From positions 440,689 to 504,688 of the forward strand of contig CAJINV010000024.1 of the NCBI GenBank assembly GCA_905178155.1: a stretch of 64,000 nucleotides of DNA. The letters run 5' to 3'. Shown one piece after another: positions 281-61,735 of this stretch; positions within the stretch are counted from its first letter, which is position 1, and each line of letters begins with the position of its first letter. Position numbers and translations under genes: made by a program. The notes beneath the pieces were generated by a model. That model ran no database searches and had not been told where the DNA came from. It saw only the letters and a program-made list of their open reading frames with translations. This DNA is from Amoebophrya sp. A120. Taxonomy: Eukaryota; Protista; Dinoflagellata.

Positions 281-3200
281 ATGAAGCGGAATTCCACCGC
301 GAAGGCCTCTGCACCACCCGGCGCAACCTCGGCTACCGGCAGGAGCACTTCATCAACACGGCAGATTCGCAATGCGGCAGGCATTGAGAAGCAGATCGCG
401 TTTGATCCCGAAAAAGTCACAAAGCTGCGGTGAGAAAAATGTTGGGGCAAAAGATACACATGTGCTGGAAAAAATTTACCCATACGCAGTTCATGCGCAT
501 TACAATCACATTGGAATTGACTATCGCCGGTCGTGCAAAATGAAAATATATAATGTAAAATGCAGGGCACTCCATGGATTTTGTAAATACTAGGTGCATG
601 AGCTTTCGACGTTGTTCTATTGCCTCAAAATTTTGTTTCCCAGCATACATAATCAAGGACCTCTACAGCTGGACCATGCTTGACAGCTTCTTTGACGGGG
701 ATCAGTTAGTTCCGCCACCGAATCGCGTCAAGTGGCTGGTGGTCAAGCACGAGGCGGCAGCAGAAAAGGCAACCGAGGTAAGTACTAAGACGAAGAGCTT
801 TGTCTTTGACATGCTGCCTGGTATTCTGTGTACTTAAAAACGGCCCCACCCCCCCAGAGTCAAGATCGTAATTCTGCAACACAAACCGCCAAGTTTTAGG
901 AATCGCGCATGACAAGTTTCTCATTCTCTTCGCACTGTAGTGTTGATTAGCGAGGGCAGCCGCATCACAAAGACGCGCGGTTATCATCTTTACAGCATCG
1001 CAAAATCCAGAATACGACTAAAACTTGGAATTCCTTTCGTGGGGATGCGCGTTGCAAATCTTTCTGTCACTGCAAATCTGTGTGACAACTTTGGGATTTT
1101 TACTCAGGATACGTGGCACTTTCTATATTTTTTTTCATATCGCAGTCCCAGTCGCCTATTGATAAGAAAGACGAAAAGAGCGGCATACTTACACAGTTTT
1201 TTGATCCGTTTTGCACACTCAAATTGGATTTCAAAATTTCTTAACACAGGCCAGCGCAGACAATCAAGACTTCGATGAGAACGAGCAAAGCGAGTCCCTT
1301 TCCGAGCGTCTTCTCATGGAGGATGTGGTCGCGCAGCCATCATTCGGCGCGGACGGTGAACCCCGGCTTGCGGATATCAATCGAAAATAATTCTGGGTCT
1401 GGAAGAGTGCAGATATTTGTGTTTGTCATGCCGTTTTTGCATATCACTATCACAGGAAATCAGGCATGAAAGGCCTCAAATGACGGGTTTGCAGAACGCT
1501 GCGCAATGCCTAATTCGCATTACAAATCCACTCTTTCAATGGCAGGAAAAAGTGTGCAACTGCTGCTGGCCATGCATGACAATTTCTTACGTAGGCTGGT
1601 GGAATGCGCATGACAAATGTAGTGCACTTTTCCAGGAGGCTCGGACAGACTTGCAATGCATAGTGGATGACGAAGAGCTAATTGATTGGGACGACCAGAA
1701 CGTGGCCTACCAGTTTATGCAAAAAAAGCGTTACAGTCACACGACGTTGCGTCGCAAAAAAAGGATGCAAAACAAACAACGTTTGTCATGCGCAGAATGC
1801 TTGCGAGCCTCTCGCTTCATGTGTGTTGTGCCTCACATATCTCTGCATTGCAATTTTCTCTGTCATGCGAGTCAAGTTTGTGATGCTGAATTCACTACAA
1901 ATGCCTAAGGCTAACTGTCACACTTTTTTTCCTTTGATGCAGTTCATCGTCACTACACTACACCTATCCTCTGCAAATATGATAGTTTTAGGGACGTGTT
2001 GGAAACTGCGTGTCTGTCATGCAAGTTGGAGGAAAAACCAAAACGTCGTCTTAGAATTGCATACTAATATTTCCATCAAATCCAGCATGACAAACTGCCT
2101 AGCTTGTCGCAATTGTGCCTAGAAGCATCATGACGGACATAAAAGTTTCTCTGGCATTGCCAACCTTACCCTGCATACGCCGAGCCTGTCATCGTGATGC
2201 CGCAGCATGAAGAATTCGTTACCAGTGTTGATGAAGGAACCTTGCTGGATCGCGCTTTCGAGGCCCTGACACTGGACGACGCCCGCTCCTTTGTCTTCGA
2301 CGAGATCTACATGTGCAAAAGCGTAGACGGCGAAAAGGTGTTTGATAGAATGTTGAAGAAGGTGCCCCCACGGTGGAAAGAGCACCGGGTTTATTCGTTG
2401 CGGGATATTGTAATGGGCGACCCGGTAGCGGTGTATTTCCCCGTGTGGACGAAGGTAGCACACAAGTATTTGTCCGATCGCGGGCCTGAAGAAAATAATC
2501 CTCGCATCCCGATAAACCGCAACTGTTGTTACGCAGTTTTGGAGCTTCCCGACAAAGAAGTCGAAAAACACGTGCGCGGGTCGGGGGGCATCGCGTTCAC
2601 CGAGGCACACCGGAAAGAGTACGCAAGGACCATCATGCAGCACCTTTGGCGTGGACGCGTATTTTTTCCGGACGAGCTTGTGCGGAAAGCAATGTGCTGG
2701 GCAGACTACAAAGTGGAGGACGCAGTGACAGACCTGTGCGAAGCTGCTGCAAATTTCGTATCCAATGCAAATTTGTCTGGGTCCACCTCTGGAAAGATGC
2801 GGACGATTTATCGTGGGGGCCGTTGCTTGCCAGAGGCCTCTCTGTCTCCTACGGCATCACCGCATGACAAACTCTCTTCTATCACGGCAAAAGAGTGATC
2901 ACTTTTGCCATTCACGCATGACACATCTCACTGCTCTTCAAATTTTGCATCACAAATCCAGACCCAGACACATTCGCAATGCATCACTTGAAGGTAGCAG
3001 CGAGGAAGCGAACGGCGAGGACGAGCAGCAGTATGCATTGCAAATACGTCTGGGTCTGGGAACGTGTGATGCTGCGTAGCGACTCATGAGGACGCCACAA
3101 GTGACGGCTCAGCATGACAAGTTTTTGAGTTACTATGTGTTGCCTATTCATCAGGAGCATGACAAACTGCGTTTTCGCCAGGCAAACCATGGGGACTATT

Positions 3201-4118
3201 CGTGTTGGATAAAAACGCGCATGACAACAGAGCTAAGCGTCCAAGTGTATGTTAGCTGAGCATGACAAACTTGCATTCGTCCTCCAGATTCAGACATATT
3301 TGCATTTGATAAGCAGCCCGAACGGGCAAAAGTGCGGAAAGTGCTGGCGGTATCAAATGCAGAAATGTCTGGGTCTGGAAGATTGCCAGGTTTGTGATGC
3401 ATATTTTGCATAACTGATAATGCCTGTAAGTAATGCATGACCTAGCAGCGCAGATTTTTAAAGGGCCTTCTGATGCGTATTCCGCATGAGAAATGCGCAC
3501 TCCGCGTAGCACAAACTGAACTCCTCTTGCTGGGCATGCAATGCAGATTTTTTTGGAATCCAAATTTAGCATTACAAATTCCAACCCTCCAGACCCAGAC
3601 CTTTTTGCAGTTCATAGGCGGAGTGTTTGAGTAACGCAAACCCCGAACACTTTTGTCGAGCCCTGGTGTCCTCCTCAAGCCCGATGGAAGACGTGGGAAT
3701 GCTAGCCGCGACAGTTGTAGGAGATATGGGGCAATCTACACTAGAAGGACAACAGACCTGGACGCCGCTTTCGCAGCTATCCGACCTCGACAAGCTAAAT
3801 CTCTTGCAAAACCGCATTGAAGCATTAGCAACTCGCGTCGCCGGACCATGGGCATGGGCAACCCGATGGGATTTTCTGCTGACCGCGTGCCGCGATCTAG
3901 GAGTCCAGACCAGCGGCGATATGTCCTCGCGGCGAAACGAGATGCAGACTCTGGCAGGCCTGCAGGAGAAAGATTTTCCGAAGGTCATGGAAATGCTCGG
4001 GGTTGGTCGGTTCCTGAAGGACACGCTCGGAGAGGATTCAGCGGAGTTGCAGACGATGGTGGAGTTCCTGAAAGACTGCGAGTGGCGGAAGTGGCCGGAA
4101 GTGGTAAATCTTGAATAG
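281..4118 (+). CDS. Multi-exon gene, family 1 (unknown protein, possible ubiquitin-like N-terminus); divergent paralog of 24075-26847 and 27884-30657
   Basis: Frame stays open after removing TIR inserts 426-647, 1375-1662, 1716-1939, 1965-2177, 2759-2985, 3032-3311, 3351-3616 (each plus 5 bp) and GT-AG intron 778-1249. KDLYSWTMLDSFFDGDQLVPPPNRVKWLV aligns to ADLCSWSIIEKLFDEDQLLPPLHRIKWFV, and CCYAVLELPDKEVEKHVRGSGGIAFTEAHR to LCFELLDLPLTEWRKHARASGGKAFTDDHR. Confidence 0.8.
778..1249 (+). other. Canonical GT-AG intron containing a nested TIR element
   Basis: GAG|GTAAGT ... TTAACACAG|GCC; phase 0 on both sides keeps the frame. Confidence 0.7.
822..1111. mobile_element. TIR element, family D, nested in canonical intron
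   Basis: TATTCTGTG...ACTCAGGATA; flanks CCTGG/CGTGG. Confidence 0.7.
1375..1662. mobile_element. TIR introner, family A
   Basis: TATCAATCG..CTGGGTCTGGAAGA ... TTGCAATGCATA; DR GCGGA/GTGGA. Confidence 0.8.
1716..1939. mobile_element. TIR introner, degenerate
   Basis: Perfect DR CAGTT/CAGTT; removal gives AYQ-FIV, matching paralog FYQFAV. Confidence 0.75.
3032..3311. mobile_element. TIR introner, family A
   Basis: TATGCATTGCAAATACGTCTGGGTCTGG ... CAGACATATTTGCATTTGATA; DR AGCAG/AGCAG. Confidence 0.9.
3351..3616. mobile_element. TIR introner, family A
   Basis: TATCAAATGCAGAAATGTCTGGGTCTGGA ... TCCAGACCCAGACCTTTTTGCAGTTCATA; DR GGCGG/GGCGG. Confidence 0.9.
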
Positions 4119-6274: not shown

Positions 6275-9200
6275 ATGCCGCCCAAGGCAGCGGGACCAGC
6301 TGCGGCTCAAGCTGCACAGATCAAGCTGCCGAGCCCGGTAATCGAAGCGCCTATGCAGATATCAAATGCAAAAGTGTGTGGGTCTGGAAGATTGCAAACT
6401 TGTGATGCTGTGTTTGGATTCTAAAAAAAATTGTATTGCATGACCAGCAAGAGGACTCCAGTTTCCCCTACGCGGAGAGGGCATTTCTCATGCGGTAGAG
6501 GTATCGCAAAGCCCTCTAAAAATCTGTGATGCTACGGCATTCATCACAGACATCATGGCTCATGGAAAATATGCATGACAAATCTAGAAATCTTCCAGAC
6601 CCACACACTTTTGCATTTGATGGCAGTTGCGTGACAGCGCGGTCAAGATTCCCGGGGAAGAGGCAAAGATCAACAACCGGGTCTTCCTATGGCGCAGAGA
6701 AATTCACTCGCGCCAGATAAAAACCAAAGTCGGGCCGCGGCCGTTCGTGCCACCAAAAAAAATTCTCTTTGGAGGGTTTCAGCGCGAAAACGAACTGCTT
6801 TTAGCATTACAAACTGCGCGCGGTATTCCTGAAAATTGCCGATGTCTCCATACCTCGTCTCCCCATTCTTACAGAGTCAGTTTTTGGTGGCGCGACTTGT
6901 TCAGCAAATCAAAGTTGGTCTTTGTCTGGTGCGGGCGTTCTTTTCCGGCGAATACTTCGAGTGCCATCACCTGCAAGTGATGACGCCGACGGACGAGCCG
7001 GATTGGCAAGGGCCGGCGGTCAACGGTGCAGCATATGAAGTGTGAGAAAATATGTTGTCACGGCACTATGAGCAACGTGTAGACTATTTTGACTTTGGCT
7101 GCGGCGTGTTTGTAGGTTTATCAACTTTCTAGCGTGTGCAGCACCACGATGGGAGTCAGTGTTGATCTGTGCTACAGATCAACACTGACTGTGATGCAGC
7201 GTAGTTCTTATGCATGATCATTCTGAATTCGAGACGGAGACATGCAGTACTTGATCAAGGAACAGGGATCAGTTGTACACCTTGCTTGTACTACCGTGAA
7301 AGCGTCTTTCTAGTGCATATCGAGCAAACGATTCCGTACAAAAAAGCGGAGCACCTTATGGAATTCTCAAATATCACATTCTCCACTGTTACAAGATTTG
7401 TCATGCAAAATTGCAATCAGAATCGGAACGATCAAGCTGCTTCGCATAACAAATTCTCGGAGGGCCAAACAGGCCGAGAGCCTGCGTAAAATCGGTCACG
7501 CAAGACGCGCAAGGCCGCCCCTTTCACTTTTGCTAGTCTAGCATCACAAAGTCACGTAAAAGGTGAGAACGTAATATTTGAGAACGCCATACACCTGAAA
7601 CTGTCCCTGCCCCGCTATCATAAGGAAAAATCCCCTCTCCCCATATCGAAAAGAAAACTATTGTGATGCTGATTTGTGACGGCAAATCGACTTTGTTGCT
7701 AGAAGGGCAAGAGACGCAGCTGGTCCCTCGTTTGCATGCAATTTGTCATGCTATTTCCCGTTTCCAGTTGCTTCCTGTCAGGCTGAAGACGCAAGGCCTC
7801 CCCACGGCAGACACCACCACAATTCGCGCCTCTTCCTTTGTAGCGTGACAATGAGATTTGTGCTCGCAAATCCAAATCTCTTTGAGTATGGGGAGGGGGG
7901 ATTTTCCCTCTGGATACCCGCGGAGAAGGGGAGTGGAAGGTCGGCCACCTCGGCGCGGGCGCGTTCGGCCATGTCGTACGGTGCGGGAGGAAAAGGCCCG
8001 GCGACCGCGAGAGCGACGTGCGGTACTACGCCATAAAGGTGATCAAGAACATCCGAGACAGGGATCCCAATGAAAAGATCCGGTCGATTCGCGAGGGCAT
8101 CTGGAGCCTCCTGATGAAAAACGGGCTGGTATCCTGAGAAAAAACGTCCCCACCCCAGAGTTGTCATGCAGATTTGCACTTCCAGGAACTGAACATGTGC
8201 ATCCTCAGGAGAACAAGCATTTGCAGTCGTGATTTAGAATTTGTGATGCTGTAAACACGAAGATCAGAGGATGGCTTTGCGATGCAGCTGTCCTTGCTAA
8301 CCCGCATTACAATACAGACAAGATAAAAACTTGTCATGCGTGATTCCCAAAACAGGTGGCTACAACGGATTTGTGTTGCAAAATTCCCATCTTCACTGTG
8401 GGGCGGGAACCTTTTTACACAGGATAGCACGATTACACGGGGATCATCCGGTGCTTCGGCGTGTGGTTCGACCCGTACGCCAACTCGTTTTGCATCCTCA
8501 TGGAAGATATCAAATGCAAATATGTCTGGGTGGTCTGGAAGAAAACAGATAGTTCTTGTCTTGCAGGTCTTTATTCGTGCGCAAAAAGGAGAAGGTGTGG
8601 AATGCGCACAGACGAGCATGACAAATTCTGCAGAAATTACTCCAAGCCTAGACTGCATGAGAAATGCCCTCTCCTGGACACTTAAGTCGGACATTGCAGA
8701 TTTTTTCCTAATTCAGAATCCGCATGAGGACGAGGCGCACGCAACCTTCCAGACCTACTAGACACATTTGAGATCCATAGAGGAGGGAGTCTTCACATTC
8801 GACGACAAGAGAGTCGACGTCGACAACGAGAACGTGAAAGAAATGCTGCCAAGCTGGGTCGGTCAAACGATGTCGGCCTTGAAACGGTTGACGCAGATGA
8901 GAGTGATCCACCGCGATATGAAGGCCCAGAACATGATGCTGGTAGTGGACACAGCGAAGCTCGGCGGCAGACCCTTGCCCGCGAAACACGACGATCGCAT
9001 TTGGCAGTATCTCCGTGCGGTGCTAATGGACTGGGGGTGTGCGAAAGGTATTGACGGGAGGAGATTTTGTAGTAAGGGATTTTTGTAGAATATCTTAACG
9101 GTTTCCTTCTTCTTCATTCCCGATCCAATTCTCACACGACATGCTTGTATCATTTTTCAGGTCGCATCGCTACAGTGCTAAAATTATTCCAACATTTCAT

Positions 9201-12200
9201 CAACGTACCAAAGGCGTCGATGCGAAACCGGGCAAGAATGGAGGGCACTCTCCGAGGGGAACCGTCGGAACGGACGACTACCATCCCCTGGAGTCGAGAT
9301 TCAACATATCGGAGGTAAATGTGTCTGGGTCTGGAAAGTTTGGAACTTTTGATGCTGTCTTCGGAATCTAGAAAAATCTGTATTGCAGCATGACCAGCAA
9401 GAGGAACCCAGTTTATGCCACGCGGAGAGGGCATTTCTCACGCGGAATAAGTATAGGAGAGCCCTTTAAAAATCTGTAATGCTAGGCCATGCATGACAGG
9501 CACCATGTTTGTGGGTCATACAAAATTATACATGAGAAAACCCGGCGATCTTCCAGACGCAGATAACACATTTGCATTTGATACAACAGACGGAACCGTG
9601 AGGAAAATCAAGTGGCAAACGACCTCAACATATACCACGACCTCTGGCCGTTCGGGATGATTTTGTTCGAGTTGCTCTTGCGCTTGAAGTATGGACTGCA
9701 AATATGTCTGGGTCTGGAAATTTGTAATGCTGGGCTGTGAAAAATAGTAAGTGCCCTTCTATGCACAAACAGTCAACTCAAGCCTGTCGTAGGAATATTT
9801 GTGCGGCTCTAAGTCGCGCTTTCTGCATCACGACAGGCTGCGTTTGGGCATGACGCGCATAGCTTCTGGGACGCACCACGAAGTCTTCAGTCATGCCAGA
9901 CAAGCATTACAAACCTTGCATTCTTCCCGACCCAGACGGATTTGCAATGCATATGAACTTCCGGGGAATGCCACTCATAACGGGAGTGATGGAGAGGTGC
10001 GGTTACTGGAGCGCCGAAACCAGGAACTGGATCGAAGAAAATGTAGTAGTAAAATACGAGGGCGAGGACAAAGAATTCGACTCGGAGGTGTGGGAGTACT
10101 ACGCGTGGATCCACTTCTGCAACGTCGCGGGCCGCTCTGTCGACGCGGCGGAGACCGAGGGCACTACCAACACTGCCGCTATCAAATCCAAACTCAGCCG
10201 CTATCAAGTGCAAAAATGTCTGGGTCTGGAAGAATGCACGATTTGTCATGCGTATTTCAATTTCTCATGACCCATGATGCCTGTAATGCATGGCCTAGCT
10301 GCATCGCAGACTTGTAGAGGGCTTCCTGATGCACCTGCCGCACGAGAAATGCCCTGTCCCTATAGCAAAAACTGTACCCCTCTTGCTGGTCATGCAATAC
10401 AAATTTTTTAGAGTCCAAAACCAGCATGACAAGTTGCAATCTTCCAGACCCAGACACTTTTGCAGTTGATAGCCGTGAGCAGGTGAAGGCGATAAGCAGG
10501 GTCACCAAGGAGCTGCAGCAGGAGGCGGCGCAGAAGGATCCCAAGATCGCGCAGCTGGCGTATGGGTTCTCAAACGTTATATTCCTAGCTGCATTTGCAT
10601 GAATTTGCCATGCAAAATTAACATAAACCACTTCTCGACCAAGCTGCTTTGCGTGACAAATTGCCGAAGGGCTACACAGCCTGTAAATCTGAGCAAAGTC
10701 TGTAATGCGACGCGCGCAAGTACAACCAGCGCCCACGTTTTACTGTTGCTATTATGATTGCATCACAAATTCAACATGTATATAACAGTTGGGAATGTAA
10801 CAGTTGAGAATCCCATATCGCGAGGCAGCTAATGCAGGGTAACCCAACGGACCGCTATAAGGCCTTCAGCAGGGACAAACTGGAAACCGACTACGGGATC
10901 GAAATCCCCAACGACTGGGTGCGAGGTAGCTCCGACGTCGAGGCCGGAGACTTTGGTCACTCGCCGCAGCAGTTGGCCGACAATCTCCAGCCCTTGGCCG
11001 AGCTATGAGAGTGCACGACCCCCTTTCGCCGACCTCATTTGTCACACGACCAAACCGGAATCCGACGTTGGTCTTTCGCATTGTCTTGCATGACAAGTCA
11101 GTGCAAACCCAGCAGCACCACGATAAAGCCGTAAACTTGTCATGCTGCAAAAAAGGACATTTCTCCCGACGTGCTCTCTTTTGCTTCTTCTTTTCTTGTG
11201 CCGTTCAAACGAGGGGAAGGGAGGTCGCGCACCCTCATACGAAGACATGATGGAGCATTACAAGGACGGCGGTCAGAAGTTGAGCCAGCACTTGATCGAC
11301 ATTCTGAAAAACATGACGACCGACCACAACAAGGAAAAGTACTCCGAGCTTTGCAGCCAGCAACAGTTGGCTGAGGCACGGGCCTCGGACTTCTGGGGCG
11401 GGGAGCGACCGCCATGTATTGCACACATCTTACTATAATATCGATGTCAATGATGATCAATGTGTACAGTACTGCAGGTAGTACCTTTTTTGAGGATACC
11501 GTGAAAGAGAACGTACTGAAGTGTTAAAAGAATAGACTGTATTGATGGTGGTGATCGGAATAAATAACGATGCGCAACAATAAATCCATTCATTCTGTTT
11601 TGAAAGTTAGTGAGCTGATATTATGCTCGAAATGATGGAAATAAAAACTGAACCTCTCTACAGACGCTTCCCCCAGCAGGAAGAGCCAGAATCCCAGGAA
11701 CCTGAATCTGGAAGTGATGGTGCCGCCGGCGCCGCCCCGCAACGCGAATGAGGTCAACCCCCTGCCGCTGCCCGGCGTATTCCTGAAGGTGTCCAACGAC
11801 ATGACGCGCGAAATAAGTAACGAGCAGGTGGATTTGCAGATGCTCCTGGACCGCTGGGGCACGGAAAAGCCGACGGACTCGAACACCGGAAAGCAGATGG
11901 GTAAGCAGAAGGTGGACACAAAGAGGAACGAGGGGATGCCCATTATTCGGCTGCGCAAATACAGGGGCCACTGGGAGGACGAAGACACGGTTTTGGTCCA
12001 CAACGCGGAGCAGCTCGCGAAAATGTGTCTCCACTCCGGGGTGTGCAAAGAGCGATTCGGCGGCAGGCCCGAGCTGCAGACCCTGTACCTGTATCAAATG
12101 CAAATATGTCTGGGTCTGGAAGACTGCGAGATCTGTCATGCAGTTTTTGCATGAGCCAGCGCCAGATCGTCTGGCATGCAAGCTCTAGCATCACAGATTT

Positions 12201-49124: not shown

Positions 49125-49389
49125 TATCAACTGCAAAAATGTCTGGGTCTGGAAGAGTGCCAACTTGTGATGCTGCATTTGGATTCCAACAAAAAATTTG
49201 TATTGCATGAGTAGCAAATGGAATGCAATTTTTGCTACCCGGGTAGGGCATTTGTCATGCGAAATAGGCATCAAGAACCCCTCGAAAAATCTGTGATGCT
49301 ACGGCATGCATCACTGACATATTGGCTCATGCAAAACGTCCATGACAAGTGTCAGAATCTTCCAGACCCAGACATTTTTACAGTCGATG
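49125..49389. mobile_element. TIR element, family A, 7 bp downstream of a stop codon
   Basis: DR CTGGA/CTGGA. Confidence 0.92.
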
Positions 49390-50069: not shown

Positions 50070-53000
50070 GTTTCTTTGCTGCTGCTCTCTTCACCGGGTT
50101 CTTCGCCTCTCTGTATGGCAGGACTCGTCGGATGTGAACTCGGAAGACGGGGCTGACGAAGATGAACGGACACTGGCGGCCGGACCCGGCTTATCAACTG
50201 CAAATATGCCTGGATCTGGAAGATTTGGGAAGTTTGTCATGCACATTTTGCATGAGCCATGATGTCTGTGATGCATGCCCTAGCATCACAGATTTTTTGA
50301 GGCCTTCTTGATGCCTATTGCGCGTAGCAAATGTTGCCTTCCCTTTGCTGCTCGCACAATACAGATTTTTTTGGATTCCAAACGCAGCATGACAAGTTAC
50401 ATTCTTCCAGGCCCAGACACTTTTCCACTTGATACGGGTGGACGTCCTCTCCAACCCCCGCGGGCTCTGCCTGGTCAGCAGAGCAGTCTGCAGAGCGGAG
50501 GTGCGCAGCCGAGTATATTAAATGCAAAATTTGTGTCTGGGTCCTCTGGATATAAAGAATAAAGAACTTGCGATGGGTGTCTTGCATTCCTGGAAAATCT
50601 GTGTTGCATGAGCAGCAAAAGAGGGGCTTGCTTTGTCATGCAAAAACGTAATTTTTGATGCGTGCTACGGTATTTTCAGCGCAGGTGTCGCAAAAACTGA
50701 CTTGCCATGCCTGGCTGCCATTGCAAGCGCTTCAATCTTCATGCTCAATTCAGCATCACCATCACAAGTTTCCAAAGGACCCAGACATATTAGCAGTGCA
50801 TAGAGTACGTCATCATACCATCAACCGCAGCAGTTTGGAGAACCAAATAACACCGGGCGTATCAACTGTAAAAGTGTCTGGGTCTGGAAGATTCTGACAC
50901 TTGTTATGCACGTTTTGCATGAGCCATGATGTCTGTGATGCATACCCTAGCAATGCAGATTTTTTGAGGGCTTCCTGGTGCCTCTTCCGCATGACAAATA
51001 CCCTATCAGCGTAGCAAAAATTGCATTCCCTTTGGTGCTCATGCAATACAGATTTTTTTAGAATGCAAAAATAGCATTACAAGTTGCATCCTTCCAGACC
51101 CAGACACTTTTGCATTTGATAGGGCGGTATCCTGTGCAAAAAGTTTAAAGAACTACAGACACACAAACGCTGTGGCCCATGTCCCACTTGCAGTTTTGCC
51201 TGTTCGCACCAGAGTGCACAGAAATTCAATCTTCGCGGACGAACAAGAACAGAGATACTTTGATGTCATGCCAACATCCTACATAATGCGACAGCGTGAG
51301 GGGTACTTAAAGCCGTTGCAAAGTCTCAACTGACTTTGTTCATCAGCGCCGTACAGTGCGACGCCATCGCACTGCAGACGACCTCATGGCGCAACGCGTT
51401 CAACACACTCGTCCTGTCGTGCGAAGCGGTGTGGACCTTTGGTAAGCACTGTGGCCAGCACGACGTTAACGCGACAGACCTTACGTTGCCAGCCTGCTTA
51501 CTGCTGTTTACGGCCGAAACTAATTTTTTGCGTGTGTGCTGCAAGGATGCTTTAATAGTGCATAAAACTTTATACACTGAAAATATGTAGTCTGGGTCTG
51601 GAAAGATTCAGACAATTTGTTCTTGGAACTAGCATGAGTTTGTCTTGTGATAGCGGCATGACAGATTTTATCGACGGCCGCCTCATGCGAAGAACTCTGT
51701 CGTGTTCAGCATCACGAATACGGACAACCGTGGAGCACCACAGAAAACGAAAAGCCGTCTACTCCTATTCCTGCATGGCAGACCCTGTAGTACATCAGAT
51801 TGCGCATGTACAAATCCAGACCCAGACTACATATTTTTATTCGATAGCAGGCGGATGCCGCGGGTGAAGTATCGCGCAACCTATACGGACCCACAAAGGT
51901 ACAAATTTTCACCATAGCGGAAATAGTTTAGAACAATTTTGATACTTGGTAAACCTAAATGAGATGCTTTAGTGGGTTTTCAGTGGCGATCACAAAAAAT
52001 CGTGGCGAAACTATTTGGCGTTCTTGTGCGTTTGTATGTAGAGACGCGACAGATAAGGACCGGAGCAGCTGCTAGAGCAGCTCTTTTGATGCACATTGTC
52101 TCCCGAAAAGCGCAAACACAAAAAATATTGCACATATTTTGGCATCACGTGCAAACAAAAGTTTTGATGGCCGCTGACAAGCAAGACGGCTATAGTTTTT
52201 TTTCTCGTGTGGGAAGGGAGCTTTTGAGGCTTGGTACTGGCGAGGAGGCTTGCGATCGGGCGACGCTCGAGCTACCTAGGCATTGCAAATATGCGTGTTG
52301 GGTCTCTTTCCAATCTTCTAGAAGTTTGTGATGCAGCTTTTTCCTGACGGCGGGTGGCGTACGACGGGTCGGTAACGCGACGCGACGGCGGGTGGCGTGC
52401 TTTCTGCCCTTCCGGAAAACGGTGTGAAGCCACTGAGCGCATCAAATGCAAATATGTCTGGTTCATCTGGCAGATTTTGGACTTTGTAATGCTGTTTTTG
52501 CATGACCCAGGAGCTCTTGGCATGCAAGCAATAGCACCACAGGTCTTGAGGAGGTTTCCACCCAATGCTTGTCTCGCATGAGAATATTCAAACTTTGGTT
52601 GGCAGAACAATTTACCTACTTTTATATATTGCTGTTCATGCATGACAGGTTATCATCTTCTGATCCAAAACGCGCATCACAGATTGCATCCTTTCTGAGC
52701 CAGACACATTTGCACTCGATAGACCGACACCAGTATGTGCGACTGGGAAACCATACGCGGCGGCAAGCCGCAGGTAACGGGAGGTGTGCCAATGAGAAGG
52801 CAGCGTGAATTCTTCGGAGCACGGCGCGAAGCAAAGTTCCGACACGATCTTGGACTCCTAGTGCAGGTGAAACCAAAACGACTCGTGGCTTTGCGTACAC
52901 CTAGCAACCCTTGGTCCACGCGGGCGGCGAAGACCTGACCGGCCGGGCTGATCTCTCGCAGTTGCAGGCACCAACGCTTGCGGGTATTATCGAAGAAGAA

Positions 53001-53410
53001 TTCCGAAAGCTTTGCTGTCCAGACCGGAATATCCTTGAAAAAAGCATATGTATGTATCTTTCTTGCACTTGCCACGACAGCATAACAAAAACAACTTTTC
53101 CTGCACGCCTCGTGCGTTCACGTGAAATCTAGCATGAAAAGGAGTCATTGAATTTGAAATTGATTTTGATACATGTGTGTTGCACAAAAGCTTTTCTGGC
53201 GCATCACCTGGTCGAAGGAACGAAGATTTATTTGGGACGAACGCCCTTCTTTCACGAGGGTTTGTGCAGCCTGTTTCGACGTTCGAACGGTACCGCAGAA
53301 CCGATCGGGAAGCCGGAAAACTCTTGTCAGAAATACAATTTGCCGGTGGAAGCGCAGATCTGGTGGAACGCCGTCGACCTCGCGGAGTTTCTTGTGCACC
53401 TAGCGACCTG
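50070..53410 (+). other. Gene-like region with TIR inserts; exon frames not resolved
   Basis: Inserts 50192-50434 (CGGCT/CGGGT), 50516-50802 (GAGTA/GAGTA), 50860-51121 (GGGCG/GGGCG), ~51572-51846, 52440-52721 (GAGCG/GACCG) separated by GC-rich segments. Confidence 0.45.
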
Positions 53411-53667
53411 AAAATACAGATGTGGAGTTTGCAGTTACTCCGTTGGAATAGTGGTTCCATAAACTACTTAGATAGTAGGCCGTTCCGAAAGATGCTTCGA
53501 TAAGAAGCCAAGTCTATAATTGCGACTAGCGCACGATGACGATGAGGTCAGGGCCGTAGGCTACTTTTGCCTTTAGGGCTCTCCTACCTCGGTGGCCGCC
53601 CACCTACCTCAGCGGCCGCCCTCTCACCTACCCCGGCGGCCGCGCGGCTAGGCGTAAGCTGCCCGCC

Positions 53668-54747
53668 CGGCGGCTCAGCCGGTAGCCCAACTGCTTAGCC
53701 CTTCGGCAAGCGGGCCAGCCGCTAGAAGGCGGCTGAGCCGTCCGTCCTACGGCTTAGCCGTTCGCCAAGCGGCTCAGCCGCTAGGAGGCGGCTAAGCCGT
53801 CCGTCCTACGGCTCAGCCGCGAGGAGGCGGCTAAGCCGCACGTCCGGCGGCTGAGCCGGTGGGAGGCGGCTCAGCCGCTCGAGGGCGGCTAAGCCGTCCG
53901 TCCTACGGCTCAGCCGCCAGGAGGTGGCTAAGCCGTCCGTCCTACGGCTTAGCCGCTAGAAGGTGGCTGAGCCGTCCATCCTACGGCTCAGCCGTTCGGC
54001 AAGCGGCTCAGCTGCTCGGGGGCGGCTAAGCCGTCCGTCCTACGGCTCAGCGGCTAGGAGGCGGCTAAGCCGTCCGTCCTACGGCTCAGCCGCAAGGAGG
54101 CGGCTAAGCCGGTGGGAGGCGGCTCAACCGCCCGTCCTACGGCTCAGCCGTTCTGCAAGCGGCCCAGCCGCTCGGAGGCGGCTAAGCCGCACGTCCGGCG
54201 GCTGAGCCGGTGGGAGGCGGCTCAACCGTCCGTCCTACGGCTCAGCCGTCCGGCAAGCGGCTCAGCCGCTCGGGGGCGGCTAAGCCGTCCGTCCTACGGC
54301 TCAGCCACTAGAAGGCGGCTGAGCCGGTGGGGGGCGGCTCAACCGTCCGTCCTACGGCTCAGCCGTTCGGCACGCGGCTCAGCCGCTAGAAGGCGGCTAA
54401 GCCGTCCGTCCTACGGCTTAGCCGTTAGGAGGCAGCTGAGCCGCACGTCCGGCGGCTGAGCCGGTGGGAGGCGGCTCAACCGCCCGTCCTATGGCTCAGC
54501 CGTTCGGCAAGCGGCTCAGCCGCTAGGAGGCGGCTAAGCCGTCCGTCCTACGGCTCAGCCGTTCGGCAAGTGGCTCAGCCGCGAGGAGGCGGCTAAGCCG
54601 GCCGTCCTACGGCTCAGCCGCAAGGAGGCGGCTAAGCCGGCCGGCCCACCCGCTTGGAGGCGGCTAAGCCGTCCGTCGTACGGCTCCGCCGTTCGGCAAG
54701 CGGCCCAGCCGCTAGGATGCGACTGAGCCGTCCTTCCGGCGGCTAAG
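53668..54747. repeat. Palindromic satellite, CGGCTNAGCCG cores with 8-9 bp spacers (~19-20 bp period)
   Basis: e.g. CGGCTCAGCCG-CTAGGAGG-CGGCTAAGCCG-TCCGTCCTA-CGGCTCAGCCG. Confidence 0.95.
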
Positions 54748-55525
54748 AATCGGGGCGCAAATCAAAAACCATTCGGCGGCGCCCGGGTCCGTCAACGTCC
54801 CTCGACGGGCGGTGGGACCGCCGCCCACCTTGTTCCCGACTCTTTCTTCGTGGAAGTCGCTGCACATGTGAAAGTGTCTGTTTGTCATGCAAAAACCACC
54901 TCTAAGATTTCTCCTTCTGGAAATTGCGTTGCGTTTCTCATGGTGTTCATCCTGATCCGGCCATCGAAGGATCGACGTACAACTGTACTCGCACGGACTG
55001 CCGTGGGAGACCACTACCACACCACATCTTGGACGTCGGACTGAAACGGCGCTCGGGCCGAGGTGCGATTGCGCAGAGAACCTACCGTGGGGGCTGGCCG
55101 TAAATGACAAGGTGGGGCTACGATATGCAATTTCAATATGTCTGGGCCGGAGAGAAAAAAGACACTTGCCACACAGTTCTTTAATCTGATAGGAGGTCTA
55201 ACTTCCAAGCGCTCGTAGAGCATGACAAATCGTCCGCAAGCTGCTTGTCTACGACTGCTCTGCAGCAGATATACTATCTTTTCGCGAAAAAACCGCACAT
55301 GTTTTGCTGGCTAGTTAACACAGATTTTTGTGTGATCTCGGATTAGCATGACAAGTTCAAGTTCGCATCTTTCCTTTTGCCTGGTATAAAATTCGCATGA
55401 CAAGTTTGCGTCTCTCCGGATTATGGCATATTCGTAATGCTTAGTGGACCGGAACCCGAACCGCAACCGGTCCAGCAAACGGCGCGTGGCCCACCCGGGA
55501 CGTGGAGTTTCCCGGCTGGATCGTG

Positions 55526-55782
55526 TATCCATTAGGAATATGTCTGGGTCTGCATAAAAGCGATTTGTGATGCGAGATCTGCAGGAAAACAAGATCTGTA
55601 ATGCACGAGTGCGGTTGTCATGTCATGTCAAACTTTTTTCTCGTGCTGACAGTCACTTTGCCATGCGTTTCGCAAATAAATCTGTATATGAGCCAAAGCA
55701 AAAACTATGATGCTGTTTTGCAGTGCAGGCACCGATCAGAAGCAATACAAACGTCCAGACCCAGAAGTATTTGCATTCCATA
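55526..55782. mobile_element. TIR element, family A
   Basis: DR TCGTG/CCGTG. Confidence 0.8.
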
Positions 55783-57449
55783 CCGTGCAGCTATCGTGCG
55801 ACGGCGCAGTATCAGTGCGTTCCTCCGCGTGCAGTAGCGGCCTCCTAGATTCCCCTGCGAAAGGTTCGTGGCCGTCAGCCGGGCAGCGTGTTTGTGCTGG
55901 TATCGCCGAGATTTCGTAGCCCATCGCCGAGATCTGGGGCGTCAGACAAAGTGTCCGATCTGTCTTCGACTCCGCGCTTGTATCCGGCGAGTCCGAACTT
56001 CGGTGGCATCTGTGGACTGCGTGGGAATACCCAAGAGTCCTCGCATCCGCTATGGAACGGCTATCAAGTGCAAACATGTAGAAGTCTGGGTTTAGAAGTA
56101 GAATGCAGACATTTGTCATGCGGTTTTTTTTACGCCGCAGGACCGGCAAAAAATGCTAAGACGACAAAAACCGCGAATACAAGTGCTACGGGCCCCATTT
56201 CTGGCCACCAAAGTCGGGCACTTATAATGTGGGGAGCATGCCAAAAAGTTAAAAGCTGTGCGACTTTTCTCTTAAAGAAGAAAAAAACCAAAACGCGCAA
56301 AGCCCGCCAAAAACTGAAAGCCAACTGCATGTCATTGGCCTGATTTTGGAGGCCCATAGGGTTGGCCCTGGCGGAGGCCCCGGGGTTGCCTCGGCGTGCG
56401 ACGTTTCTTTCAACAAAAAAGCATTTTCTCACTGGAAACAACAGGGGCGCGGCTTTTCAACAAAAAAAGCCAAAAAATGGAAACGCAGCCAAAGGCAGCA
56501 TGCCAATCCGCGTGCCATGGTCCCGATTTAGGGCGCCCAAGGAGTCGACTCTGGCGAAGGCCCTAGCGGGGCCAACAACAGTGTCCGTGTCCGTCCTGCG
56601 GCTGCGCCATCGCGCCGCGTTTGCAAACAAGCCTCTACAACAACGACCGCGCGGAAACGATCAGTAGATACTGCAATCTGTGATGCAGTATCTACCGTTC
56701 ATCACCAGGTTTGCAGATGCTGCAATCTGTGATGCAAAAACGCAATAATTGCGACTTTGTGAAGTACAAGTAGAATCGAGAAGGACCAGTTGTTTTGAAA
56801 AATAAAACTTTTAGTTGTATAATTTTCCTCCGGCTTCAGTGATCTACCTAAACTTCAATTTTGATTTTACCTTGCAATATAATTCTCTGCAACTTCTACT
56901 TCTAGGCAGGAGATCACCTGTGATGGTTCTTTTTTCTCGCCCGGAACCACGAGTCCCAGTCCTATTGTAAGGAAAATGATGCTGATGAACGTGCTGTCAG
57001 CAGATTGTGCCCGTCTTTGGAACGAGTAGGAGAGCAGACTTCATAGTACCTCTGGGTACGTATTTATCTGGAAAGAAAAAAGCATCTTGCGCGCAGGTGG
57101 CGGTGGTGGTGGTGGTGGTGGTTGGGCGAATAATCACAACATTGCAGTAATATGCCAGGTTTCGAATGTGGTGCATGACCACTGGTGCAAATTTTTTTGA
57201 TGCCGCTGTGGTGCGGTCCTCGGGAAAAGGTATGCATGCATGACAAACTTGTAAGGTCGTGCAAAATGATAATGAAACAGGAAGCGCACCCGAGAGCTAC
57301 TATGTTCCCCGTCGATATGTCATTGTCATGCGTATGAAAAAAGCTTTTCTTTTAGTTGCAGTTTCTTTTGCAACTTTGCCACAGTGTTGTGTAAACAGAG
57401 TACAAAAAATATATTTTTCTTTCCAACATGATCCGAACCTTGAGGACGA

Positions 57450-59278
57450 ATTAAAACCGTTTCCAGGTCTACCAAGCCGCTGATTTCCTTTCCCAAGGGC
57501 CACAGCAACCACTTCCTGATAACCAGCATTATGGAGCGTACCGGGTCAACTTCCTCGAGGGCTTCAACGATAAGCAACCACGAGTCGATCTTCTACGCAG
57601 AACGCCGACACAAGCTTCCCAATATCAACTGCAAACGTATCAGTATCTTCTGGTTCACTGTAGGGGCCTGTGATATTTTATTGTGGATCCGAAGACGATA
57701 GCGATACATTTGTATAAGCACATCCGCGAACAAGCTCGTGAGCAAATGACGAGACTGTTAAAAGGACGATATACAAGCTTGTATAGATGGCGCAGTACGG
57801 TGGATTTTCATGCATGAGGCCATTTTTCCAAACTCAGAGATAGTTGCAGTGCATACCCCAGCTCCTCTTCGACTAGACGGAAAAAAGCGAGCGCCTGTAT
57901 TCCAGCTCTGCGGTTCGAGTCGGCCGCAGACGGTCCTAGGCCCAAGAGACGCGTCGAAGAGAAAGATACAACACACTGCAGAGGAGCACCCACCGCTGAA
58001 AGAACTTATGGAGAAAAAGCCATTATTATCCTGTGTAAAAGGGTCCCCGACCTAGTAGAGTCAAGAAAGGGAGGATTTTGCAGCACAAGCATAGAATTTC
58101 TGGGAATCACGCATGACAAGTTGCAGGCTAGCAAGGACAGCCGCACTACTCGCAAGTCCATCTGTTTATAGTATCCTCTCTATAGCACTACAAATTCCGG
58201 AACACGACTGGAAATGCCTATCATGGGAATGAGCGTCACAAATGTCCCTGTCATTGCATCAAATCTGCATGACAACAACTCTGAAGTCAAGGCGCCTGTC
58301 CTACCCCCCCTGTGTTTCAAGCCATGTGCGCCCTGGGGCGGCAGAGAGGGGGCACACAGTGTGCTGCAATGGTTCCTTTGGCATGACAACTCTGGGTTGG
58401 GGCTGTTTTTACAGAGGATAACTGTACCTGCGAGTCCGGTCCTACAAAAAAGACATGGCTCGGACGGTATTGGGCCAGGTGGTTCCTGGGAAAAGTATCA
58501 CACAGAAAAACACCGGGGGGCCACGTTTGGCGTGGCCGTGAAAGTACGGAAGACAGGCCTTCCTACGTCATCACGAAAGACGCAAGAAAATCGGTCTTGC
58601 ACCATAGCCAAAGATGAAGCCAGCACACTATAGGTTGAGGTTCGCCCAGAACACAAACCTATTGTCTGCTCTTCTTCTTTGGTATTATGATCCGCACTTC
58701 AAACGTACGCCGCGCCTGCTTTTTTCTGTGTGATAGCAACGCTGAAGTACTTGGTTCTCGAGGTCGTGTCGAATCGCCACGACTTTAATAGCGATGGCGT
58801 TACCCTGGTGTGGACTGGAACTGGTTTGCAAGGGCCGCTCGAGCCCGGCCGTGGAGGGGCGGACGGACTCCGGTACTTCGACAGGGGGTATCTCGGGTAC
58901 ATGCAATGCCGAGCACATATCTACCACGAAGCTACCTACGGCACGGACGAGTGGGTGGAGAAGGTGGATAGCGGGGTGGCGCACCACGTTGGAAAACTGC
59001 CAGACGGGTGGGAAACGTTGCACAAAATGATGAAGCGCTTGGTGGCCCGCGTCCCCGAGCGAAAATACGATGCAGAAACTTCGAACGGGAACCATTTCTT
59101 TTATGATTTGGTCACGACGACGGATCCGCAAACCATGATGGCCGGTTCCTACAACGAACCAGTTCACGACATCCTGTTCGACCACGCATACGGGGATGCT
59201 GCAGCCGACCAAACCATTGGGCAGTGGCTTTTCGACCACGCTTTGGCCTTCGCCGGAAGCAGTGGTATAGGTAATTAG
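57450..59278 (+). CDS. Multi-exon gene, probable family 2; only the last exon (~58700-59278) is clear
   Basis: LVLEVVSNRHDFN and TYGTDEWVE resemble LIKHVVSDGAAFN and PYATDEWIS of the 31539 gene; inserts 57623-57855 (CCCAA/CCCAG) and 58027-58420 (family D). Confidence 0.5.
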
Positions 59279-59806
59279 TGAGGTGGGTTGCAAGTAGTAA
59301 TTTTTATGCTGATCATCATGAGGAAAAAGCCGAAGCAGCAAGCACATTGTCATGTCAACCCGGCATACGAACCTAAATCAAGGTAACCATGCGGACCCAC
59401 ACGTATCGCACAGAAATCAGGGAAAGAATCCATGCTACTACTAGAGAGAAAAATAAGTAGAGCAAAAAATGGTCAGAAGTTCAAGTAAAAGCCTTGCAGT
59501 GGTTTATGTTGCGCTCCGCACCATCTATGCTGCACGCTAGTTGTGGACATAGTCTCTCGCCTGCGAAAACTCACTTTCGTAGATATGTTGATTGCAAGTC
59601 GCAATTACAGTTGTTGCGTCCCCCTCTCTGTCCCATGCAGTGTCTTGGTACCATAACTGAAAAACCAGACTCAGCTGGGTGCGCTGGAAAAAAATGTATC
59701 GGTTGTGGACTTTGCATCAACACTGATGCTATCGTGACTTCTCAAGTTCCGCAACGAAAGTTTATAAATTTTCATTTCTTTTCGGCATGGGTCACTTCTC
59801 GTTTTC

Positions 59807-60059
59807 TATCGAGTGCAAATATGTCTGGGTTTGGAGGAATGCAACTTGTAGTGCTGAATTTGGATTGCAAACAAATTTGTATTGCATGAACAGCAAATTT
59901 AGTCTAATTTGTGCTACACGGAGAGGGAATTTGTCATGCGGAATAGGCATCGAGAAGCCTTCAACAGATCTGTGATCATAGGGTATGCATCACAGACATC
60001 ATGGCTCATGCAAAACGTGCATGACAACCTTCCAGACACAGACATATTTGCATTTGATA
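59807..60059. mobile_element. TIR element, family A
   Basis: DR TTTTC/CTTTC. Confidence 0.85.
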
Positions 60060-60110
60060 CTTTCTATGCGATAACAAGCGGAGTCCGACGCGGACCTGCT
60101 GAAGAAGCTA

Positions 60111-60381
60111 TATCAAATGTAAAAGTGTCTGGGTCTGGGAGCATGCAGCTTGTCATGCTAAATCTGAAGCATGCAAAATAAAAAGCTGTGTTGCATAATT
60201 ACCAAAAGCCGACCAGTTTTGACAAAGTCGGGAGGGAGTTTCTCATGCAGGATACACAGGCATGAGAGAGATCGCATGGAATCTGTCATGCTAGGTCCGG
60301 CAGTCCAGACCTCATTGATCATGGAAAAGCTGCAAAACAAATCGCGCACTCTTCCAGACCCAGATACTTTTGCATTTGATA
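60111..60381. mobile_element. TIR element, family A
   Basis: DR AGCTA/AGCTG. Confidence 0.9.
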
Positions 60382-61075
60382 AGCTGCACACCCAGGCTAT
60401 GAAATGCTCAGGTGCTACAATCGCACCGTCGCACGATGCAATTACACCTGATATTTGTCTTGCATGAGCAAGGGCATGGATGAAAAACACACAATACATA
60501 GAGCCTTGCGCCATGGCGATACTTACTAATGTAGCCGGATTCCAATCGGATTTAGGACTTCTACAAATAACCTTTCCTGCGTACTATTTGTGTGAGGATA
60601 GGGCAGCCGGCTGTGCATTCCAAGTCTGCGCCTTCGTTGCGGCAGTTGAGATTGTAACACCTGTGCGGGCGATAGACGTGGGGCAGCGACTTATCAAATA
60701 AAGACACACCTGCACCACTCCGCGAAGCTGCTCGCGGCGCGTTCTTCTTTATACAGTTGTTGAGTAACAAGCATGCACACCCAGCAGGGATCATTGCACC
60801 GGACTTTGCCGTCACCGCAGTCAACGCATTGCGTGAAGATCCATAATACCCGGTCACGCAACGTTGGCCTTCAGGTTCAGCCAAAGTACTAGGCCTGCTT
60901 TGTTATTGGTGTCATGACATACGAAATAAAAGCGCACGTGAAGTAGGACCCTGTGACCGTGGTGCAGCGTCTCCGCTGAATACTTCTAGATGGCAAACAT
61001 TCCAATTTTTGTGGCGCGACTGCCTTCTATTCCGCGGAGAGCACTGATAACACGTACAGAGAGCTGGAAAGCCTG

Positions 61076-61735
61076 ATGGATCGAGACGAGGTTAAAGATG
61101 CACCTGCTGTGCGAGAGGTGACGACGTCCGTATCCATTGAAACTGTGTCGGGGTCAGGAGGTCCCGTGCCTTCCACTTCATGCGAAATAAACGAACGACA
61201 CCACCATCAGCTTTGTGATATGCGCCAATGCAACTTCCTGTTTTATTGTTTTTGTCATGCTCGGGAATTCTCATTCTGTTATTTATTTGGTCATGCGCAA
61301 GAATGTGCAGAACGTGTCGCGCGTTTCGCAATTATCCGGGAAACAAGTCTTGTTGCCCTAGTCCGAAATGAGACCCGGACGCGGTTGCGCGGTTGATATT
61401 CAGCATCAAGCTCCGGTGAGGAAACGCGGCCGACGAACGGCTTCGCCGCGGGTGGCCTATTCGCAGGAAACACGGCTGTACCAAACGCGTCGCAGACGCT
61501 GAGAGCACCGAATGCACGCGTCGCCACGGGTAGCAAGCGGCAGCACCACGAATACAACATCTACAATGGCAACGAGTTTATCAGGGTTTGTGCGAGTAGT
61601 ACGAACGGGGTCACGCGGGTAGGCATAGCGGAGGACATGAAGTCATATCTTGAGTCTTGCGCAACGGGGGCTTGGTTTTTTCAGATCTTGAAAAGCTGGC
61701 TGGGGAAGTTGTTGGGGAGGCCACCCTATCGTTAG
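61076..61735 (+). CDS. Hypothetical 2-exon gene or gene fragment
   Basis: Removing insert 61131-61398 plus 5 bp (GTCCG/TTCAG) joins MDRDEVKD.. to a further ~110 open codons. Confidence 0.45.

What the first reader, a model, noticed from the sequence alone, without database searches (positions are those of the whole stretch)
426..61398. Genes split by ~70 TIR-bounded, 5-bp-DR-flanked inserts that act as non-GT-AG introns
Seen: inserts of mostly 200-330 bp with structure DR5-[TAT..TIR..interior..TIR..ATA]-DR5 interrupt nearly every gene; at least 19 have perfect 5-bp DRs. Deleting the insert plus exactly 5 bp restores the frame at nearly every junction I could trace, even where the DR has decayed. 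They lack GT-AG ends in any consistent register. Known: inverted-repeat/direct-repeat introners with non-canonical boundaries are described in the dinoflagellate parasite Amoebophrya, and I know of no established excision mechanism. Inference: these are non-autonomous DNA transposons (5-bp target duplication) removed precisely from transcripts by a structure-guided route. Their TA...TA termini leave DNA-level, IES-like excision as an alternative.
Basis: partly seen in the sequence, partly recalled or inferred. Interest (0 to 1): 0.92.

Follow-up and report, generated by a model that had tools for sequence, protein, structure and literature searches.

The report
Fixed-register transposon introns in Amoebophrya
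In the marine parasite Amoebophrya A120, short transposon-like inserts that split genes stay in the DNA but are missing from spliced transcripts; the inserts are already known, but all 32 junctions checked fit one cutting rule (one base before and four bases after the inverted ends), which likely reflects a loosened spliceosome.

Summary
I count 75 TAT...ATA inverted-repeat inserts, and 19 of 72 curated ones have a perfect 5-bp direct repeat. A kinase exon is 100% identical to an Amoebophrya sp. A120 protein, so these are the introner elements of Farhat et al. 2021: already known. Spliced contigs skip element + 5 nt, while a DNA-like run keeps 8 elements whole. Removal is therefore at RNA level, not IES-like. 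What I did not find in print is a fixed register. The intron is N-TAT...ATA-NNNN at 7 of 7 unambiguous junctions, and it is the only register that fits all 32, in both element orientations. Farhat calls the splice sites variable, yet all nine top A120 motifs in their Table S4 begin NT. Empty paralogous sites show a 5-bp target duplication. Nested elements appear to be removed inner-first (inferred). Best mechanism (inferred, about 0.55): a relaxed U2-type spliceosome reading N-U-A, with the hairpin fixing the 3' cut. Rival: a euglenid-like cut-and-ligate route. The scan noted similar introns in three other genomes.

The parts
1375..3616 (+). Four elements in one gene: 1375-1662, 2759-2985, 3032-3311, 3351-3616
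   Evidence: an X1 contig has 71 nt between 2757 and 3617, which equals the three latter elements + 5 nt each removed
6275..12436 (+). Protein kinase gene (P0001, 730 aa) with 15 introns: 13 TAT...ATA elements (6360-6622, 6688-6954, 7034-7319, 7357-7591, 7616-7916, 8130-8426, 8508-8779, 9307-9583, 9690-9953, 10202-10471, 10561-10817, 11004-11239, 12092-12359), one decayed element and one plain GT-AG intron
   Evidence: splicing by the -1/+4 rule gives P0001 letter for letter
9048..9213 (+). Decayed element (9049-9209, perfect 5-bp repeat, 3' end lost) that reads GT...AG in the -1/+4 register
11003..11243 (+). Intron with unambiguous junction, CT...AA (element 11004-11239)
   Evidence: X4 contig piece starts at 11244; intron length 241 from P0001
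11416..11663 (+). Plain GT-AG intron, skipped by the same contig that skips elements (control for RNA origin)
   Evidence: X4 record 8
12479..12715 (+). Element in the 3' untranslated region, removed with +5 nt
   Evidence: record arithmetic (115 nt between 12089 and 12720)
22565..30292 (+). Nine elements in tandem paralogous genes: 22565-22724, 24219-24382, 24433-24663, 25179-25439, 26171-26476, 28031-28193, 28244-28464, 28649-28922, 29982-30292
   Evidence: +5 removal opens 670- and 673-codon frames, against 269/333 and 599/373 for +4/+6; no RNA laid here
25179..25439 (+). Element present in one paralog and absent at the matching site (about 29260) of the next: 5-bp target duplication
28649..28922 (+). 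Element present in one paralog and absent at the matching site (about 24840) of the other: 5-bp target duplication
31563..36575 (+). Gene of about 204 codons with 13 removed elements: 31563-31828, 31912-32227, 32289-32591, 32679-33001, 33060-33340, 33366-33574, 33622-33883, 33917-34211, 34271-34959, 35004-35324, 35351-35622, 35673-36232, 36284-36575
   Evidence: joints
32288..32595 (+). Intron with unambiguous junction, TT...GT
   Evidence: both = 0
33621..33887 (+). Intron with unambiguous junction, AT...AC; family-1 element, orientation +
34270..34963 (+). Intron with unambiguous junction, CT...AG, holding a nested element
34439..34700 (+). Nested family-1 element with perfect 5-bp repeat; inferred to be removed before its host
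   Evidence: an X1 contig piece begins at 34701, the predicted leftmost joint
35672..36236 (+). Intron with unambiguous junction, TT...GG, holding a nested element
35903..36170 (+). Nested family-1 element; inferred to be removed while the host is still present
   Evidence: an X1 contig piece 35642-35899 ends at the predicted leftmost joint
36283..36579 (+). Intron with unambiguous junction, CT...AA; family-1 element in the opposite orientation to 33622
38611..41383 (+). Gene with nine elements: 38611-38840, 38896-39230, 39282-39544, 39608-39876, 39958-40149, 40177-40428, 40491-40652, 40708-40988, 41073-41383
   Evidence: the rule predicts contig lengths 672 and 744 exactly
39281..39548 (+). 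Intron with unambiguous junction, TT...CC, direct repeat fully decayed (0 of 5)
42917..49389 (+). Ten elements: 42917-43228, 43414-43657, 43703-43954, 45302-45563, 45757-46009, 46157-46429, 46546-46819, 47542-47863, 48282-48585, 49125-49389
   Evidence: sequence only; no RNA laid
50192..61398 (+). Thirteen elements: 50192-50434, 50516-50802, 50860-51121, 51571-51846, 52440-52721, 55526-55782, 57623-57855, 58027-58420, 58496-58735, 59807-60059, 60111-60381, 60398-60674, 61131-61398
   Evidence: sequence only; no RNA laid; gene models incomplete at 50-56 kb
430..668 (+).
   Evidence: sequence only

Best explanation
These are non-autonomous inverted-repeat elements with a 5-bp target duplication that stay in the DNA and are cut from transcripts in one register (one base before TAT, four bases after ATA), likely by a relaxed U2-type spliceosome. 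Shown: the anatomy; the 5-bp duplication; retention in DNA; absence from spliced contigs; the -1/+4 register, which removes exactly element + 5 nt whichever way the element points and whether or not the repeat survives. Inferred: the first bases N-U-A stand in for the G-U-A of a normal donor with +1 freed; the terminal hairpin brings the ends together in place of U1/U2AF recognition; the A seven bases from the 3' end may be the branch nucleotide; and the 3' cut is set by distance, not by AG. A new insertion would therefore be silent at any target sequence and in either orientation, which would let the family flood coding DNA. The mobilising enzyme was not found.
For: Register: 7 of 7 unambiguous junctions; registers keeping 0-5 upstream repeat bases fit 9, 11, 12, 17, 32 and 21 of 32 junctions; GT-AG is possible in 2 of 32. 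Opposite orientations of one family share the register (33622 and 36284). Contig lengths are predicted exactly (1199, 744, 672) and P0001 is reproduced. RNA level: and low-depth intron-retaining contigs inside genes with zero depth at 37129-38139. For the spliceosome: only this register puts T at +2. Intron +2/+3 are T 70 of 72 and A 72 of 72, and both +2 exceptions read GC. Farhat Table S4 top motifs begin NT in 9 of 9 for A120 and TT in 9 of 9 for A25; A25 repeats start TTA, so two strains with different ends both give N-T-A. Repeat position 3 deviates at 6 of 236 5' ends but 0 of 273 3' ends (A at -7) in outside loci (p = 0.01). A decayed element reads GT...AG in the same register (9048-9213). 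A120 keeps U2, U4, U5, U6 and 83 of 89 proteins, with U1 snRNA undetected. Tunicates splice mostly non-GT/AG introns with a conserved U2 spliceosome.
Against: There is no preference for G at +1 (105 of 317, against 102 in the exon copy) or for AG at the end (20 against 22; likewise). A spliceosome would have had to lose both terminal-base contacts. TAT at +2 to +4 is also simply the transposon end. The bases before the -7 A lack a branch-point consensus (T at -9 in 26 of 72), and the hairpin would hide both signals. The -7 asymmetry rests on six events, on a computed strand call (30 of 33 right in the window), on loci whose organism I did not establish, and on several uncorrected tests. All junctions are in + strand genes, so the mirror test was not possible. 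In 14 of 32 junctions one side was seen and +5 was taken from record lengths or P0001. Only 7 are unambiguous, from two samples of one study. In 13 of 75 elements the predicted fold does not pair the ends well. A TAT/ATA-like pair in a transcribed 3' region (14992-15492) is not skipped.
Confidence: 0.55

Rival explanations
1. The same elements and register, but removal is spliceosome-independent: an endonuclease docks on the base of the terminal hairpin, cuts 1 nt 5' and 4 nt 3' of it, and a ligase joins the exons, as suspected for euglenid nonconventional introns.
For: No selection on the first or last intron bases. In 62 of 75 elements the predicted fold pairs at least 6 of the first 13 bases with their mirror positions; z = -9.1 for 33622. 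Euglenid introns have a fixed stem (+4,+5 with -7,-6) and are reported to leave as circles (review passage).
Against: It does not explain why the register lands on N-T-A in both A120 and A25, whose repeat ends differ. A-to-G at -7 would keep a G-U pair yet is never seen, while pair-breaking changes at +4 are. An element with a weak fold (39282, z = -1.9) is still cut exactly.
Confidence: 0.33
2. The elements are excised from DNA in a transcriptionally active nucleus or life stage, like ciliate IESs, and transcripts come from the cleaned genes.
For: The ends contain TA. 667 joints were not displayed and contigs drop rare variants, so a minor excised DNA fraction is not excluded. Runs X1-X4 are only guessed to be RNA by the tool.
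Against: X5 contigs hold 8 elements whole at depth 42-48 with no differences. A contig that lacks elements also lacks a GT-AG intron. The asymmetric register follows the gene, not the element's orientation. Partly processed contigs occur. Removal is element + 5 nt, not the retain-one-TA pattern of Paramecium IESs (recalled).
Confidence: 0.04
3. Removal is at RNA level but the cut position varies within the repeat, as Farhat et al. state; the -1/+4 register is only the commonest, or holds for these families only.
For: Farhat Fig. 3 legend calls the sites variable relative to the hairpin, and the Fig. S23 legend places repeats 1-5 nt from the sites. Gozashti 2025 lists mixed GT/GC/GA/AT/other ends and target duplications of 2-5 bp for A120 families (22 of 58 rows seen). 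Contigs show only the majority form.
Against: 7 of 7 unambiguous junctions agree, from family-1 members and unrelated singletons. Ambiguity inside direct repeats would by itself make aligner-placed sites look variable (inference). Table S4 motifs all have T at +2.
Confidence: 0.08

Closest known systems
Introner elements among the non-canonical introns of Amoebophrya sp. A120 (Farhat et al. 2021, PMC7789003)
   Same: Same organism by a 100% protein match. Inverted repeat starts TAT, about 7 variable bases, then AAA; 3-5 nt direct repeats (5 bp in their Fig. S19); about 240 nt long; RNA-supported; mixed with GT-AG introns; MITE-like.
   Different: The paper reports variable or unknown splice positions and no clear signature. 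Here the position is fixed (-1/+4), the repeat is always 5 bp, empty paralogous sites show the duplication, and nested elements appear to be removed inner-first.
A120 TIR-DNA introner families in Gozashti et al. 2025 (PMC12130899, dataset file 8)
   Same: Families of about 250-305 bp classed as TIR DNA elements of unknown superfamily.
   Different: Their rows give mixed splice sites, duplications of 2-5 bp and family-specific 'co-opt' or 'carry' calls. The junctions here fit one rule.
Euglenid nonconventional introns (Milanowski et al. 2014, PMC3935182; review PMC11282704)
   Same: Non-GT-AG ends, terminal stem at a fixed offset from the cuts, direct repeats at junctions, MITE-like origin.
   Different: Stem at +4,+5/-7,-6 (CA/TG) with purine/pyrimidine preferences at the junctions. 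Here it is +2..+4/-7..-5 (TAT/ATA) with no junction preference. Unrelated lineage. Circular products are reported there and untested here.
MITE-derived spliceosomal introners (Micromonas, Aureococcus, Symbiodinium, Polarella; PMC9860276, PMC11282704) and non-GT/AG introns of Fritillaria (PMC13326754)
   Same: Insertion plus splicing restores the original coding sequence; splice sites fall within the target duplication.
   Different: Those need a GT/GC or AG supplied by the element or target, or keep their own fixed dinucleotides. These need no particular target base.

Membership tests
Amoebophrya A120 introner elements | Occurs in Amoebophrya A120 | tested here: met
   exon 8783-9043 is 100% identical to P0001, named Amoebophrya sp. 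A120; the rule-spliced gene equals P0001
Amoebophrya A120 introner elements | Terminal inverted repeat starting TAT, about 7 variable bases, then A-run | tested here: met
   end logos against Farhat section 11
Amoebophrya A120 introner elements | 3-5 nt direct repeat at the exon/intron boundary | tested here: met
   length 5 stands out (0.73 against 0.22-0.37)
Amoebophrya A120 introner elements | Removed from RNA without GT-AG ends | tested here: met
   30 of 32 junctions cannot be GT-AG
Amoebophrya A120 introner elements | Repeated in families | tested here: met
   families of 30, 6, 4 and 3 members, three pairs and 23 singletons among 72
Non-autonomous TIR DNA transposon (MITE) | Target-site duplication against an empty site | tested here: met
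   two filled/empty paralog pairs differ by element + 5 bp
Non-autonomous TIR DNA transposon (MITE) | Insertion in both orientations, no coding capacity | tested here: met
   family 1: 14 in one orientation, 16 in the other, 0 of 267 links inconsistent; sizes 160-689 bp
Non-autonomous TIR DNA transposon (MITE) | Autonomous partner with the same ends and a transposase | tested here: inconclusive
   five long (0.6-2.5 kb) candidates in 132 loci plus the window; the one with a 415-aa frame has no Pfam hit and looks like a foreign insert; no whole genome was held
U2-type spliceosomal intron | GT/GC...AG ends | tested here: not met
   2 of 32 junctions; no G or AG enrichment
U2-type spliceosomal intron | Lariat with 2'-5' branch at an adenosine; dependence on U2/U6 | not testable with these tools
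   only contigs were informative; the -7 A asymmetry is indirect
Euglenid-type nonconventional intron | CA/TG stem at +4,+5/-7,-6 | tested here: not met
   the stem is TAT/ATA at +2..+4/-7..-5
Euglenid-type nonconventional intron | Excised as full-length circle | not testable with these tools
   no raw reads of this organism's RNA were available
Ciliate-type IES | Absent from the expressed genome's DNA | tested here: not met
   8 elements whole in X5 contigs at depth 42-48; rare or stage-specific excision not excluded

The most novel reading that the evidence does not exclude
Amoebophrya A120 runs a splicing system that ignores both terminal dinucleotides and reads a transposon hairpin as a ruler (cut at -1 and +4). 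It makes every insertion of these elements silent at any site and in either orientation, and peels nested elements inner-first. The 'variable' non-canonical introns of this genome would then be one uniform class. It would be processed either by a U1-less spliceosome branching 7 nt from the 3' end or by an undescribed nuclear cut-and-ligate enzyme system co-evolved with the transposon's 5-bp stagger.
Probability: 0.6. Interest if true: 0.78.

Novelty: already known. Interest (0 to 1): 0.5.

Why it matters
How Amoebophrya removes more than 60% of its introns without GT-AG ends is an open question, and the published picture (variable, unknown borders) gave little to test. A fixed N-TAT...ATA-NNNN rule names the two bonds cut, a candidate branch base and the mutations that should break removal. 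It would let this genome's introns be re-annotated without guessing inside direct repeats. It explains why some elements look canonical by chance. It also shows how a transposon family can become harmless in coding DNA with no target preference.

Tried and rejected
No whole genome was held, so there is no genome-wide count and no transposase search. No RNA holder was on record as RNA. Run X7 (raw RNA reads, same species label) gave 53 partial reads, 52 of them at 90-95% identity and all on element ends, so it was not used. The first read lay at 90% likeness was swamped by other copies of the elements; only its pieces table was used. An end motif had 0 matches in viral contigs. Selection for G at +1 or AG at the end was tested and not found. 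L054:476-2934 as an autonomous element was rejected: a foreign insert interrupts the left repeat and the frame has no Pfam hit. Pfam found nothing for 7 other single exons. The frame test for +4/+5/+6 was clear in the paralogs. It was uninformative or not best at +5 in several small or incompletely modelled regions (22.4, 42.6, 47.3, 50, 54.8 and 57.4 kb). The scan's notes had nothing by place or by sequence. Figures in Farhat's supplement (S19-S25) are not held as text and may show the register; two of 14 Gozashti supplement files were not searched.


Full report
Observation. A first scan for inverted repeats with flanking repeats found TAT...ATA elements throughout the genes. A weight-matrix pairing gave 72 candidates against 5, 5 and 8 in resampled controls. 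I curated these: five pairs dropped, six re-paired (one split in two) and four added, using end lists and RNA joints. Among the 72 curated elements, 19 have a perfect 5-bp direct repeat and 28 have 4 of 5. Flank identity peaks only at length 5 (0.73 against 0.22-0.37), and 63 are 200-330 bp. Three more turned up in the kinase gene, making 75, or 31% of the window.

Organism. Exon 8783-9043 has a weak kinase match (PF00069, below cut-off). It is 100% identical over its length to P0001, named Amoebophrya sp. A120 (1 hit among 34 candidates). Farhat et al. 2021 (PMC7789003; I read the abstract, passages, sections 10, 11, 12 and 16, supplement part 2 and Table S4 rows, but no figures) describe A120 introner elements. 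Their inverted repeats start TAT and end in an A-run, their direct repeats are 3-5 nt, and the introns are RNA-supported. The finding as stated is therefore published.

Transposon origin. Tandem paralogs at 22.5-30.7 kb give two filled/empty pairs. Element 25179-25439 is absent near 29260, and 28649-28922 is absent near 24840; each pair differs by element + 5 bp. Interiors cluster into families of 30, 6, 4 and 3, three pairs and 23 singletons. Family 1 lies in both orientations, 14 and 16. In 132 outside loci carrying a family-1 end, 138 of 182 elements have a perfect 5-bp repeat. No autonomous partner was found.

RNA, not DNA. Runs X1-X4 are only guessed to be RNA, but an X4 contig skips the GT-AG intron 11416-11663, and all four have zero depth at 37129-38139. 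They skip the elements. All 18 joints seen on both sides remove element + 5 nt. Many are flagged 'between: not known', but summed lengths match the contigs exactly (1199, 744, 672). Run X5, which behaves as DNA, holds 8 elements whole in contigs of depth 42-48 with no differences. It may be the assembly's own source, and most of its joints were not shown. Low-depth contigs that retain an element occur inside genes. Two of them stop exactly where removal of a nested element predicts (34701 and 35899) while the host element is still present. I read this as inner-first removal; the joint rows were among the 9 hidden, and an empty allele is a less likely alternative.

The register. Where the repeat has decayed, the cut can be placed. 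Seven junctions are unambiguous, with introns starting at 11003, 32288, 33621, 34270, 35672, 36283 and 39281. All start one base before TAT and end four bases after the element end, with ends CT-AA, TT-GT, AT-AC, CT-AG, TT-GG, CT-AA and TT-CC. Over all 32 junctions (12, 20; 14 seen on one side only), registers keeping 0-5 upstream repeat bases fit 9, 11, 12, 17, 32 and 21. GT-AG is possible in 2. Elements 33622 and 36284 are one family in opposite orientations with the same register, so polarity comes from the transcript. One exact case has no repeat left. Applying the rule to the kinase gene gives P0001 letter for letter, though P0001 and the runs may share source data. Farhat's Fig. 3 legend calls the sites variable relative to the hairpin, and the text finds no clear signature. 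Yet all nine predominant A120 motifs in Table S4 begin NT, and all nine for A25 begin TT. Gozashti et al. 2025 (PMC12130899; passages and 22 of 58 A120 rows of supplement file 8) list mixed ends and 2-5 bp duplications. Six full-text searches did not show the rule. Nor did passages of PMC12005148, PMC11282704, PMC12787238, PMC11453091, PMC9860276, PMC3935182 and PMC13326754. Unseen figures and subscription papers may.

Mechanism (inferred). For a relaxed spliceosome: this is the only register that puts T at +2. The 5' end reads N-T-A like G-T-A, and both +2 exceptions read GC. A25, with TTA ends, also gives T-T-A. In outside loci (343 elements, 26 dropped as mis-registered, ends matching the search motif excluded, strand called by a coding model), repeat position 3 deviates at 6 of 236 5' ends and 0 of 273 3' ends (p = 0.01, uncorrected). 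So the A at -7 seems to matter as a base, since G there would still pair. A decayed element at 9048-9213 reads GT...AG in the same register. A120 keeps U2, U4, U5 and U6, with U1 undetected. Against: there is no preference for G at +1 (105 against 102 of 317) or for terminal AG (20 against 22), there is no branch consensus, and TAT is also just the transposon end. The rival is a hairpin-guided endonuclease and ligase, as suspected in euglenids, whose introns have a fixed but different stem. Ends pair in the predicted fold for 62 of 75 elements (examples). One TAT/ATA-like pair in a transcribed 3' region is not skipped (14992-15492); it may be a chance pair. I put RNA-level removal in a fixed register at about 0.88, split 0.55 spliceosome and 0.33 non-spliceosomal. 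A variable register gets 0.08 and DNA excision 0.04.

Verdict. Real, and already known as a class in this organism. The fixed -1/+4 rule, the empty-site evidence and the nested intermediates sharpen an open mechanistic question into direct tests. Interest 0.5.

Noticed in passing
window 12716-22564: No curated element in about 9.8 kb, including a 3.8-kb stretch (12720-16496) transcribed without a break after the kinase gene. Target sites are GC-rich (0.64 against 0.44 here), which suggests an insertion or retention bias towards coding DNA.
   Followed up: partly
window 18763-22475: Tandem array of about 183 copies of a 20-bp unit with a palindromic core; possibly centromeric or boundary DNA.
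   Followed up: no
window 53693-54645: GC-rich higher-order tandem array with 20/39/59/98-bp periods.
   Followed up: no
window 22470-30700: Tandem paralogous genes (two complete, about 670 codons after splicing, plus a 3' fragment) that share old insertions and differ by two younger ones; no Pfam hit for two long exons.
   Followed up: partly
window 14992-15492: TAT/ATA-like end pair (9 of 14 complementary, repeat 1 of 5) inside a transcribed 3' region that the X1 contig does not skip.
   Followed up: partly
L054:476-2934: Family-1 element with a perfect 5-bp repeat carrying a foreign insert of about 2.2 kb with a 415-aa frame on the minus strand and no Pfam hit.
   Followed up: partly
window, inside many elements (e.g. 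33690-33850): A short internal motif of the GCATGACA/GCATCACA type recurs in both orientations within elements of several families and forms internal hairpins; possibly transposase-binding subterminal repeats.
   Followed up: no
window 982-1111, 1965-2063, 51128-51564, 55124-55388, 56062, 52277, 48189: Unpaired or poorly paired element ends left out of the curated list; the true count is probably above 75.
   Followed up: partly
whole window: Every gene that I could model lies on the + strand, as in the unidirectional clusters reported for Amoebophrya.
   Followed up: partly
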